DNA of 64,000 nt from a virus (Duplodnaviria > Caudoviricetes). How positions within the stretch are numbered: position 1 is the first letter of the stretch; each line of letters begins with the position of its first letter. Below the pieces are notes generated by a model that saw only the letters and a program-made list of their open reading frames with translations, did not search any database and was not told the DNA's origin. The position numbers were made by a program, and so were the translations under genes. The stretch is taken from positions 1 through 64,000 of the IMG/VR virus record IMGVR_UViG_3300047160_024814. One strand, written 5' to 3'. Positions 23,615 to 25,386 of this stretch are shown one piece after another.

Positions 23615-23690
23615 AGGTCCGGGTCTGGGGTAGGGGCTGGTTTCATCTGTCAAATGAAACGCCATCCCCGCCAGTTTCCGGCCCGGACCT
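23615..23690 (+). ncRNA. Y-RNA-like structured RNA 1
   Basis: Terminal stem AGGTCCGGGTC/GGCCCGGACCT. Shares TGG..GGG..TGGTTTCATCT..ACGCCA..TCCC..GTTTCCGGC with RNAs 2 and 3. Upstream of Ro60. Confidence 0.6.
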
Positions 23691-23726
23691 ATCAACCGCA
23701 AAAATCGCTTGACTTGACGATCGGCC

Positions 23727-23830
23727 CCACTTAGAGGGGCAGTGCCTGTCTGGTGTCGGGATTGGTTTCATCTTTGGTGATGTACAACGCCACTCCCACT
23801 GTTTCCGGCAGGCACTGCCTCTCCAAGTGG
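23727..23830 (+). ncRNA. Y-RNA-like structured RNA 2
   Basis: Long terminal stem GAGGGGCAGTGCCTGTC/GGCAGGCACTGCCTCTC. The 62-bp core 23748-23809 is identical to 23859-23920. Confidence 0.65.
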
Positions 23831-23837
23831 AGAACGG

Positions 23838-23941
23838 CCCCGGGATGCGGGGTGACGAGTCTGGTGTCGGGATTGGTTTCATCTTTGGTGATGTACAACG
23901 CCACTCCCACTGTTTCCGGCTCGTCACCCCGCATCCCGGGG
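23838..23941 (+). ncRNA. Y-RNA-like structured RNA 3
   Basis: 24-bp terminal stem CCCCGGGATGCGGGGTGACGAGTC/GGCTCGTCACCCCGCATCCCGGGG around the same 62-bp core. Confidence 0.65.
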
Positions 23942-23970
23942 GTTCCTATCACTCTGGCATGAGAGGCAAA

Positions 23971-25386
23971 ATGGTCCGCGTCAATGTCCGCCCGTCTCGT
24001 CTTTCCAACCGCCCGGTGCATGAGCCGGCAGCCACCACGGCATTCGATCCGAAGACCGAATTGGAGCGGATGGCCAGCTGCTGCCTGCTGGGTGAGGACC
24101 AGTTCTATGTGAACGGGCAGGATATCAAGGCGCGGATTTTCGAACTCGCTTCCACCGTGGAAGCCGAATTTGTCGCCAATCTGGCGGCGTTTGCCCGGCG
24201 TGATCTCGGCCTGCGCCATGCGCCGCTATGGTTGCTGGTGGCGCTCGCCAACCGGCAGGATGGCAGCCAGTCGGCCCGCATCCAGCGTGCCGCCGTGACG
24301 GTCCTGCGCACGCCCAGGGATGCGCTCGATCTCGCCGCGCTCTATTGGGCCGATGGCCGCAAGCCGCTGCCCTGGAGCTTCAAGCAGGCGTTCCGGCATG
24401 GCTTTGGCCGCTGGTCCGACTTCCAGCTGCAGCGTTATGCGACGCTGGGCCGGGATGGAAAGACCACGGTACGGCTGCGTGATCTGATGCGTCTGGTGCA
24501 TCCATATGTCGAGGGCAGCCAGGACGCGCAGACGCCAGAAGAGACGGCGCGGGCAGCGTTGTTCCATGAGATCGCCAAGGACACGGTCACCGCGCCGGAG
24601 ACCTGGGAGTCGTTGCTGCCACGCGCATTAGCCGCAAGTGGCCGCAAGGTGATTTGGACTGGGCTGATTGCCAACCAGAAAATCGGCGCATTGGCGATGA
24701 TCCGCAATCTCCGGAACATGGTCGCGGATGATGTCGAGCCCGATGTCATCCGGCAGGGATTGAGCCAGATCAAGGCCAGCGATGTCTGGCCCTGGCAGGT
24801 CCTCGCCGCAGCCAATCATGCGCCATCTTGGCTGCATGACGAGCTTGGTGCACTGATGTTGCGATCGGCCGGACAGGTACCGCCGATCAAGGGCAAGGTC
24901 GGCGTGCTGACCGATGTATCCGGTTCAATGGATAATGCTATTTCCATCAAGAGCCAGATGAAGCGGCTAGATGCCGCCTGTGGCGTGGCGGTCGTGCTGC
25001 AGGAATGCTGCGAGAACATCCGGCAATTCTCGTTCTCCAGTCAGCTTGTGGAGATCCCGCAAGGGCCGCGCGGCGTTGGGCTTGCCAAAAGCATCATCGA
25101 AAGCCAGCCGCATCAGGCTACGTATCTGGGTCCGGCGATCGAGCGGATGCTGCAAGTCTATCCAGAGATGAACCGGCTGATCGTCTTGACGGACGAACAG
25201 TCACAGTATCGGGTAGGCAAGACGCCACCGGCCTTCATCATCAACTTCGCGTCCTATCAGCGCGGGGTCGATACCGATGGCGAAGTCACGCGGATCAATG
25301 GCTGGTCGGGCAATGTCGTGCGCTTCCTGGCCAATCAGTTGAGTGGTTCGCTGATCGAGGCCGCTGAAGAAAGCGACGAGGACTGA
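23971..25386 (+). CDS. Ro60/TROVE-domain RNA-binding protein with C-terminal vWA
   Basis: ELERMASCCLLGEDQFY, ARRDLGLRHAPL, VRLRDLMRLVHP, PETWESLL, ALAMIRNLRNM, vWA VLTDVSGSMD and LIVLTDEQS. Start set after the GAGAGG SD. Confidence 0.92.
   Translation: MVRVNVRPSRLSNRPVHEPAATTAFDPKTELERMASCCLLGEDQFYVNGQDIKARIFELASTVEAEFVANLAAFARRDLGLRHAPLWLLVALANRQDGSQSARIQRAAVTVLRTPRDALDLAALYWADGRKPLPWSFKQAFRHGFGRWSDFQLQRYATLGRDGKTTVRLRDLMRLVHPYVEGSQDAQTPEETARAALFHEIAKDTVTAPETWESLLPRALAASGRKVIWTGLIANQKIGALAMIRNLRNMVADDVEPDVIRQGLSQIKASDVWPWQVLAAANHAPSWLHDELGALMLRSAGQVPPIKGKVGVLTDVSGSMDNAISIKSQMKRLDAACGVAVVLQECCENIRQFSFSSQLVEIPQGPRGVGLAKSIIESQPHQATYLGPAIERMLQVYPEMNRLIVLTDEQSQYRVGKTPPAFIINFASYQRGVDTDGEVTRINGWSGNVVRFLANQLSGSLIEAAEESDED

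What the first reader, a model, noticed from the sequence alone, without database searches (positions are those of the whole stretch)
23615..25386. Phage Ro60/TROVE gene with three tandem Y-RNA-like genes, two sharing an identical core in unrelated outer stems
Seen: three hairpins directly upstream of Ro60. RNAs 2 and 3 share an identical 62-bp core (23748-23809 = 23859-23920), but their long closing stems have unrelated sequence and are each almost fully paired. RNA 1 keeps the motifs GTCTGG, GGG, TGGTTTCATCT, ACGCCA, TCCC and GTTTCCGGC. The 3' GTTTCC forms an asymmetric bulge beside the terminal helix. Established: bacterial Ro60 binds Y RNAs through a bulged helix, Y RNA genes lie next to Ro60, and the RNP acts in RNA decay and repair. 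Inference: a phage-encoded Ro60 RNP with a small Y RNA repertoire, possibly protecting or redirecting RNA during infection. No tRNA-like T-arm is visible, so these are not canonical YrlA.
Basis: partly seen in the sequence, partly recalled or inferred. Interest (0 to 1): 0.8.

Follow-up and report, generated by a model that had tools for sequence, protein, structure and literature searches.

The report
Phage Ro60 gene with three short Y RNAs
A soil-type phage carries a Ro60 (TROVE) RNA-binding ring protein gene preceded by three small hairpin RNAs of the Y RNA family that accompanies Ro60 genes in hundreds of phages and bacteria. It is a genuine but already known kind of RNA-protein module.

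Summary
Three hairpins (23615-23690, 23727-23830, 23838-23941, + strand) lie directly upstream of a TROVE/Ro60 gene (probable start 23971, end 25386). RNAs 2 and 3 share an exact 62-nt core inside unrelated closing arms of 22 nt each.

The Y RNA interpretation is supported. A covariance model built from the three copies, then rebuilt from its hits, finds 143 matches in 81 viral TROVE loci and 196 in 79 cellular TROVE loci. All but one are on the TROVE strand, mostly within 1 kb upstream, and covariation is strong. The long (~140 nt) matches coincide with sub-threshold Rfam YrlA hits and carry T-loop motifs. The short (~70-90 nt) matches, including the three here, lack the tRNA-like module and resemble YrlB/Yrn2-type hairpin Y RNAs.

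The protein has the full Ro60 fold. Its closest solved relative is the Ro60 of Thermus phage phiLo. Phage Ro60 with upstream Y-like RNAs is published (Chen 2014; NAR 2025), so this is a new member of a known kind.

Three details are unusual:
- the 100% identical core with unrelated stems, an outlier among 40 within-locus pairs
- closing helices of 25-26 bp against a family median of 9
- a C at a position that is A in 94% of the family

The parts
23551..23563 (+). Doubled TTGAC motif (TTGACAGTTGACA) after an A-rich tract. It is a possible -35 region or operator 52 nt upstream of RNA1.
   Evidence: TTGAC-N0-2-TTGAC occurs only twice in 64 kb, both times in this locus (expected 0.36; 6 of 100 shuffles reach 2). 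The consensus promoter scan found nothing. Promoter function is inferred.
23615..23690 (+). Y-like RNA 1 (76 nt). It has a 9-bp closing stem, a U bulge, the CUGG/CCGG helix, the motif GGGGUAGG, helix 2 and an apical hairpin with the 7-nt loop CUGUCAA.
   Evidence: Fold (z -4.4). Model R2 scores 71.3 bits, E 1.5e-17. Alignment.
23709..23718 (+). Second doubled TTGAC motif (TTGACTTGAC), 9 nt upstream of the RNA2 stem.
   Evidence: The A-rich lead-in is similar to that of the first motif.
23727..23830 (+). Y-like RNA 2 (104 nt). It has closing arms of 22 nt with two mismatches, then the core 23748-23809.
   Evidence: z -5.6. R2 scores 79.9 bits. The closing helix is 25 bp in total.
23838..23941 (+). 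Y-like RNA 3 (104 nt). It has perfect closing arms of 22 nt, then the core 23859-23920, which is identical to that of RNA2.
   Evidence: z -8.6. R2 scores 79.3 bits. The closing helix is 26 bp in total. Rfam YrlB scores 25.4 bits, E 0.001, far below its gathering score of 97.
23971..25386 (+). Ro60/Rsr-like protein gene (TROVE HEAT-repeat ring plus vWA domain with the MIDAS motif DVSGS). The gene caller's start is 23959.
   Evidence: Pfam TROVE E 1e-8. phrog_850 E 2e-27. PDB 9KOP/9L5Y E 5e-17. AlphaFold2 pLDDT 84, with Foldseek TM 0.69-0.71 to the phiLo Ro60 and 0.59-0.65 to Xenopus or human Ro60 and Deinococcus Rsr. D319, S321 and S323 are invariant.
25387..26093 (+). Two downstream ORFs abutting the Ro60 stop: 97 aa with no family, and 138 aa with a weak HTH match. 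They may be in the same operon but are not part of the conserved module.
   Evidence: No homologue lies beside TROVE in any of the fetched loci.

Best explanation
The locus is a phage-borne Ro60-Y RNA module.

The gene encodes a Ro60/Rsr-type ring protein. Its 5' leader encodes three short Y RNAs. Each has a closing helix formed by its 5' and 3' ends. Next comes a conserved asymmetric internal loop. The 5' strand of that loop, GG(Y)G(N)AGG, occupies the place of the GNCGAA-type Ro60-binding motif. The 3' strand is ..CU.GUUUCC. A second helix and a small variable apical hairpin follow. The RNAs lack the tRNA-like module of YrlA, so they are hairpin-type Y RNAs of the YrlB/Yrn2 class.

Shown here:
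- the RNA structure family and its covariation
- its tight, strand-specific linkage to TROVE genes
- its continuity with published YrlA RNAs
- the Ro60 fold of the protein.

Inferred:
- The RNAs are transcribed with the Ro60 mRNA and cut out of it. The 25-26-bp helices of RNAs 2 and 3 are long enough for host RNase III.
- They bind the outer face of the phage Ro60 ring through the conserved loop.
- They gate the ring, or tether it to a host partner such as PNPase as reported for Deinococcus, Salmonella and Thermus phage phiLo. This would redirect host RNA decay or counter a host defence during infection.
- The identical core of RNAs 2 and 3 inside unrelated stems is best explained by gene conversion, or very recent copying, of the protein-binding core. 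The stems need only pair, and may be kept different so that tandem units in one transcript fold independently.
For: - Model R1, built from the three copies alone, found 44 further hits in 81 viral TROVE loci. Of these, 43 are on the TROVE strand and nearly all lie just upstream.
- Model R2 found 143 viral hits, all on the + strand, in the window and 75 of the 81 viral loci. Of these, 129 are upstream (125 within 1 kb) and none is inside the ORF. It found 196 hits in cellular TROVE loci, 195 on the + strand, and only the three hits in the whole 80-kb record.
- Covariation: 83.5% of cells are paired against 57.6% in shuffles and 38-51% when the partners are slid. Twenty-five of 27 pairs show double changes.
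- Lengths are bimodal. Twenty-nine of 38 long forms carry GTTCRANNC, against 2 of 105 short forms.
- Long forms coincide with Rfam YrlA at 32-51 bits. CcrColossus, a phage for which Chen 2014 is cited as reporting Y RNA-like RNAs, has 7 hits upstream of its TROVE gene.
- Exact GGCGAAGG occurs at the motif position in L051 and L072, matching GNCGAAN0-1G of PMC4201824.
- The Rfam YrlB alignment shares the apical CAUCUUU..UGAUG hairpin.
- Protein fold.
- Literature: phiLo Yrl1 and Yrl2 lie upstream of its Ro60 and form complexes with host PNPase (PMC12135203). The Ro60-like gp130 of phage Bas63 counters the Ppl defence (PMC11482910).
- No neighbouring gene is conserved with TROVE, only the RNAs.
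Against: - There are no expression or binding data.
- No Rfam family reaches its gathering score.
- The motif in the window copies deviates from GNCGAA. RNAs 2 and 3 have GGUGUCGG, with C where 94% of the family has A and no other member has C. RNA1 has G where the family has only U or C. Binding to this Ro60 is therefore assumed, not shown.
- No promoter or terminator was recognised by the consensus scan.
- The record encodes no PNPase-type or RtcB gene, so any partner must be supplied by an unknown host.
- The gene-conversion account of the identical core could not be tested, because no close relative of this phage could be fetched.
Confidence: 0.8

Rival explanations
1. The hairpins are cis-acting elements of the Ro60 mRNA leader, such as autoregulatory binding sites for Ro60 or stabilising and processing structures. 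They would not be stable trans-acting RNAs.
For: They lie on the same strand directly before the gene. RNA3 ends 29 nt before the start codon. None has its own terminator or a recognised promoter.
Against: Members of the same family are reported to accumulate as discrete Rsr-bound RNAs in Salmonella and M. smegmatis, where they are processed from one precursor (PMC4201824). Fourteen family hits lie downstream of TROVE genes. Arrays of up to 6-7 copies are hard to explain as a leader. The two roles do not exclude each other.
Confidence: 0.1
2. The three RNAs are decayed remnants of YrlA-type genes that lost the tRNA-like module and no longer function.
For: There is no tRNA-like module. The Ro-binding motif is divergent, with a C that is unique in the family.
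Against: The stems are intact (22 of 22 and 20 of 22 pairs). The internal-loop and helix-2 columns are conserved. Short forms are the majority class, with 105 of 143 hits, and 43 of 76 sources (the window included) carry short forms only. An identical 62-nt core argues for recent copying or selection, not decay.
Confidence: 0.05
3. The hairpins are generic palindromes such as terminators or REP-like repeats, or outlying units of the nearby TIGR guide array. They would be unrelated to Ro60.
For: A TIGR-Tas array lies 2 kb upstream according to earlier scan notes. The hairpins are GC-rich.
Against: No U-tract follows any hairpin. The internal loops are conserved in sequence across more than 150 TROVE loci with covarying helices. 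Nothing else in the 80-kb record matches.
Confidence: 0.02

Closest known systems
Thermus phage phiLo Ro60 with Yrl1 and Yrl2 (PMC12135203; PDB 9KOP, 9L5Y)
   Same: Both are phage-encoded Ro60 rings with several Y-like RNAs directly upstream on the same strand. The phiLo protein is the best solved sequence match (E 5e-17) and structure match (TM 0.69-0.71).
   Different: Protein identity is only about 22-23%. The phiLo RNAs were picked by their CGAA motif, whereas the window RNAs have GUCG or GUAG at that place. Binding to Ro60 and PNPase was shown for phiLo and not here.
YrlA (Rfam RF02553; Chen et al. 2014, PMC4201824), including the phage copies in CcrColossus and mycobacteriophages
   Same: The closing stem, internal-loop motif and helix 2 form the same scaffold. 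One model (R2) detects both kinds. Both lie within a few kb of Ro60 on the same strand.
   Different: The window RNAs have no tRNA-like T and D arm module and no RF02553 match. They are about 60 nt shorter at the apex.
YrlB / Yrn2-type hairpin Y RNAs (Salmonella YrlB RF02565, M. smegmatis YrlB, D. radiodurans Yrn2)
   Same: All are long hairpins with a small apical loop, encoded beside Ro60 as a second or third Y RNA. The weak RF02565 alignment shares the apical CAUCUUU..UGAUG hairpin and the 3' U-rich bulge.
   Different: The score is 25.4 bits against a gathering score of 97. The Rfam model is narrow: Chen 2014 found YrlB orthologues only in other Salmonella serovars. Here all the Y RNAs are of this type and no YrlA is found in the record.
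Listeria phage CKA15: three highly transcribed regions upstream of an Rsr-like gene (PMC12282133)
   Same: Three putative ncRNA regions lie within 2 kb upstream of a phage Rsr homologue, in the same direction.
   Different: Those were found from expression and have no structure family assigned. This case has structure and family but no expression data. I did not compare the sequences.

Membership tests
Ro60 / Rsr (TROVE) protein | TROVE domain by sequence profile | tested here: met
   PF05731 at 35 bits against a cut-off of 23, though only a 75-residue stretch matched. phrog_850 matches over residues 53-457, E 2e-27.
Ro60 / Rsr (TROVE) protein | HEAT-repeat ring plus C-terminal vWA domain | tested here: met
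   AlphaFold2 pLDDT 84, pTM 0.80. The top 13 Foldseek hits are all Ro60 structures aligned over the full length, TM 0.59-0.71.
Ro60 / Rsr (TROVE) protein | MIDAS motif DxSxS in the vWA domain | tested here: met
   DVSGS is present. D319, S321 and S323 are invariant in 29 homologues.
Ro60 / Rsr (TROVE) protein | Binds Y RNA on the outer surface and misfolded RNA ends in the central hole | not testable with these tools
   Needs biochemistry.
Bacterial Y RNA in general (Chen 2014) | Encoded within about 4 kb of the Ro60 gene on the same strand | tested here: met
   The RNAs lie 29-356 nt upstream on the + strand.
Bacterial Y RNA in general (Chen 2014) | About 80-130 nt, with the 5' and 3' ends forming a long stem beside an internal loop | tested here: met
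   Lengths are 76, 104 and 104 nt. Folds; covariation.
Bacterial Y RNA in general (Chen 2014) | GNCGAAN0-1G motif near the 5' end (presumed Ro60 contact) | tested here: inconclusive
   The homologous column block reads GG(U/C)G(A/U/C)AGG in the family and is exactly GGCGAAGG in L051 and L072. The window copies read GGUGUCGG and GGGGUAGG, which do not fit the literal motif.
Bacterial Y RNA in general (Chen 2014) | Stable RNA bound by Ro60 in vivo | not testable with these tools
   Needs Northern blot or RIP.
YrlA (RF02553) | tRNA-like module (T and D arms) | tested here: not met
   ARAGORN finds none. The short forms lack the T-loop motif.
YrlA (RF02553) | Rfam gathering score of 69 bits | tested here: not met
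   No match at E up to 10 in the whole record or in 23450-24050.
YrlB (RF02565) | Rfam gathering score of 97 bits | tested here: not met
   25.4 bits on RNA3.
YrlB (RF02565) | [quoted passage not shown] | tested here: inconclusive
   The hairpin shape fits. The loops are UUUGGU (RNAs 2 and 3) and CUGUCAA (RNA1), which are only partly pyrimidine-rich.

The most novel reading that the evidence does not exclude
RNAs 2 and 3 may show a modular design: one fixed Ro60-binding core carried on interchangeable long double-stranded stems. On this reading the stems are functional modules in their own right. They could be RNase III entry sites that set dosage, dsRNA decoys for a host sensor or nuclease, or orthogonal 'addresses' for separate partners. 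The unique A-to-C change in the core, together with G-to-A on the opposite strand, could mark a switch in binding specificity that co-evolved with this phage's Ro60. A related lead from an earlier scan note is that the RNA1 tip (7-nt loop CUGUCAA) mimics a tRNA-Asp anticodon loop and could act as a decoy for an anticodon nuclease.
Probability: 0.1. Interest if true: 0.6.

Novelty: new member of a known kind. Interest (0 to 1): 0.33.

Why it matters
Ro60-Y RNA particles are conserved from bacteria to humans, and what they do in phages is only starting to be studied. Published leads are hijacking of host PNPase by phage phiLo and countering of the Ppl defence by phage Bas63.

The window adds one more phage example, and the work yields a wider result. 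Short hairpin Y RNAs without a tRNA-like module share one scaffold with YrlA. They are the commonest form beside viral TROVE genes, and no Rfam family detected the window's copies at its gathering score. A curated model would let these RNAs be annotated in phage and acidobacterial genomes.

The identical-core, different-stem pair is a small natural experiment. It shows which part of a Y RNA is constrained and which part only has to pair.

Tried and rejected
- Rfam at gathering thresholds on the whole window found nothing. At E-value thresholds it gave only generic miRNA-hairpin matches plus weak YrlB.
- A DNA search of GenBank phages with the locus found no match.
- A single-protein scan of viral contigs found nothing. 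Only the alignment-based scan worked.
- A pattern scan of viral contigs for the core found 0 matches.
- Two metagenome pattern scans gave 0 matches and one chance match. The chance match, L165, has a partial motif only and no stem.
- My first own-genome pattern had the wrong spacing and is uninformative.
The contigs of the closest protein relatives, P0002 and P0003 at 59-60% identity, could therefore not be inspected for their RNAs.
- Stems as guides or decoys with targets in the phage: neither arm has another copy in the window with up to 3 mismatches.
- A conserved operon partner: no homologue of the four flanking ORFs lies beside TROVE in about 165 loci.
- An anticodon-loop mimic as a family-wide feature: 10 of 17 seven-nt predicted loops among 100 distinct short forms fit YUNNNRN. 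Tips are otherwise heterogeneous in size and sequence. It is not a general property.
- A T-loop reading of the conserved GGUU(A/U)C(A/U)UC block was rejected by eye, because the positions that are invariant in tRNA T-loops do not fit.

Full report
**Observation.**
- An exact 62-nt direct repeat (23748-23809 = 23859-23920) sits inside two pairs of inverted arms. These are 23727-23748/23809-23830 (22 nt, 91% complementary) and 23838-23859/23920-23941 (22 nt, 100%).
- The two 5' arms agree at only 8 of 22 positions, and neither arm recurs in the window.
- A third, shorter hairpin at 23615-23690 keeps all the listed motifs.
- The + strand folds are far better than shuffles, with z-scores of -4.4, -5.6 and -8.6. 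They are also better than the - strand folds. Each RNA has two G.U pairs that would be A.C on the other strand.
- One detail needs correcting. In the 3' GUUUCC the CC is paired, and GUUU plus 1-3 preceding bases form the long side of an asymmetric internal loop.

**The gene and the genome.**
- The record is an IMG/VR virus contig of 79,977 bp, estimated 85% complete.
- It carries terminase, portal and tail-fibre genes, plus DNA polymerase, primase, helicase and exonuclease genes.
- The ORF after the hairpins matches Pfam TROVE and phrog_850 'RNA-binding protein' (E 2e-27).
- Its best solved relative by sequence is the Ro60 of Thermus phage phiLo (9KOP/9L5Y, E 5e-17).
- An AlphaFold2 model (pLDDT 84) aligns over its full length with phiLo Ro60 (TM 0.69-0.71) and with Xenopus or human Ro60 and Deinococcus Rsr (TM 0.59-0.65).
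- The MIDAS motif DVSGS is present and invariant among homologues.
- The start is probably ATG 23971. It has the SD GAGAGG 5 nt upstream and fits the homologue consensus MxRxN. The called start at 23959 is less likely.

**Are the hairpins tied to TROVE genes elsewhere?**
- I collected 80 viral and 80 cellular loci that encode relatives of the protein.
- Model R1, built from the three window copies alone, found 44 further matches in the viral loci. Of these, 43 are on the TROVE strand and nearly all lie just upstream.
- Aligning the 26 best matches gave strong covariation: 87.7% of cells paired against 63.6% in shuffles, with 22 pairs showing double changes.
- The rebuilt model R2 found 143 matches in the window and 75 of the 81 viral loci, all on the + strand. 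Of these, 129 are upstream, 125 within 1 kb, none is inside the ORF and 14 are downstream.
- R2 also found 196 matches in the cellular loci, 195 on the + strand.
- In the whole 80-kb record only the three known sites match.
- On the 143-sequence alignment, 83.5% of cells pair against 57.6% in shuffles and 38-51% when the partners are slid. Twenty-five of 27 pairs carry compensatory changes.
- None of the four ORFs flanking the module has a homologue in the other loci. The conserved unit is therefore the protein gene plus the RNAs, not a syntenic block.

**What the family is.**
- Hit lengths are bimodal, at about 70-90 nt and about 140-150 nt. Twenty-nine of 38 long forms contain a T-loop-like GTTCRANNC, against 2 of 105 short forms.
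- Long forms coincide with sub-threshold matches to Rfam YrlA (32-51 bits against a gathering score of 69).
- Caulobacter phage CcrColossus is cited as one of the phages in which Chen et al. 2014 found Y RNA-like RNAs. R2 finds seven copies upstream of its TROVE gene, with tRNA-like inserts. Xanthomonas phage Sopo has both short and long copies.
- The family's most conserved block is GG(U/C)G(A/U/C)AGG on the 5' strand of the internal loop. It is exactly GGCGAAGG in two loci. That is the GNCGAAN0-1G motif proposed as the Ro60 contact and compared with vertebrate GGUCCGA (PMC4201824).
- The window RNAs are therefore short members of the YrlA scaffold family that lack the tRNA-like module. Chen et al. 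called this class long hairpins with a small loop (Salmonella and M. smegmatis YrlB, Deinococcus Yrn2).
- The weak Rfam YrlB alignment shares the apical CAUCUUU..UGAUG hairpin.
- No YrlA-type RNA, tRNA, RtcB or PNPase-type gene is found in the record.
- Short-only sets are common: 43 of the 76 sources with hits, the window included, have only short forms within 3 kb. R2 was trained on short forms and may under-detect long ones.

**What is unusual here.**
- The 100% identical core with unrelated stems is the extreme among 40 within-locus pairs of short forms. The next highest is 80% (L004). The means are 64% within loci and 55% between loci.
- A 10-nt leader at the base of each stem, GA(T/A)CGGCCCC, is also shared (family D8). 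The whole unit was therefore once duplicated, yet the middle of both arms differs.
- Gradual compensatory change cannot replace about 14 of 22 stem pairs while leaving 62 core positions untouched, given that RNA1 differs at 27% of core positions. Gene conversion or recent re-copying of the core is the most economical account.
- Unlike stems may be favoured so that tandem units in one transcript fold independently. This is an inference.
- The closing helices of RNAs 2 and 3 (25-26 bp) lie at the 95th percentile of the family, whose median is 9 bp. Long stems also occur in the closest relatives L002, L003 and L004. This length suits RNase III, which fits excision from a common precursor, as reported for M. 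smegmatis Y RNAs. This too is an inference.
- RNAs 2 and 3 are the only 2 of 135 distinct sequences with C at a column that is A in 94%. They also have A at the facing column, which is G in 92%.

**Mechanism.** By homology, the RNAs should bind the outer face of the Ro60 ring through the internal loop and regulate it or tether it.
- Published phage cases point to capture of host PNPase (phiLo; PMC12135203).
- They also point to counter-defence (Bas63 gp130 against Ppl; PMC11482910).
- A Listeria phage shows three highly transcribed regions upstream of its Rsr-like gene (PMC12282133).
- Expression, binding and partner are all untested here.

**Comparison and verdict.** This is a real Ro60-Y RNA module and a new member of a known kind. 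It is not YrlA, because the tRNA module and the Rfam score both fail. It does not reach the YrlB model's threshold. It works like a hairpin-type Y RNA.
- The wider by-product is a covariation-supported model that unites short and long Y RNAs beside TROVE genes in phages and bacteria.
- The scan had already noted this same stretch in another reading.
E-values from my models are rough.

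Noticed in passing
window 51038-53375: The large terminase matches are split over two ORFs. ORF 51038-51946 matches the ATPase part (phrog_38 positions 273-481) and ORF 52272-53375 matches the nuclease part (positions 507-709). A 108-aa ORF (51946-52272) lies between them. This could be an inserted element or a split terminase.
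   Followed up: no
window 23551-23563 and 23709-23718: A doubled TTGAC motif, each preceded by a similar A-rich tract, occurs only at these two places in 64 kb. Both lie just upstream of Y RNA units. They may be promoters or an operator. The second would place a transcription start near the RNA2 core, which conflicts with use of the 5' arm.
   Followed up: partly
L083-L161 (cellular TROVE loci, mostly Acidobacteriota): Many loci carry tandem arrays of 4-8 model hits, short and long forms mixed, within 3 kb upstream of the TROVE gene. Examples are L134, L118, L127 and L100. These arrays are larger than the two Y RNAs described per species in the literature I read.
   Followed up: no
L003 2740-2812; L014 2287-2516; L054 2896-2969; L038 2418-2501: Genuine tRNA genes (52-66 bits) sit among or beside the Y RNA units upstream of viral TROVE genes. 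crAss001 and CcrColossus also have tRNA genes nearby. This matches the Bas63 remark that its Ro60-like gene adjoins a tRNA cluster.
   Followed up: no
L139 2011-2566 (Desulfococcaceae HSG8): Three 72-nt short-form copies are spaced exactly 242 nt apart upstream of the TROVE gene. They look like a regular repeat array.
   Followed up: no
window 23640-23660: The RNA1 tip can form a 7-bp stem closing the loop CUGUCAA, which fits the anticodon-loop pattern. This was already noted by the scan (e1-5963775). Across the family, 10 of the 17 predicted 7-nt loops (100 distinct short forms in all) fit that pattern.
   Followed up: partly
window 20371-21432: This ORF, 2.5 kb upstream of the Y RNAs, matches phrog_4285 'transposase' (E 6e-17). 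Earlier scan notes read it as the TasA effector of a TIGR-Tas guide system. The phage would then carry two small-RNA-protein modules side by side.
   Followed up: no
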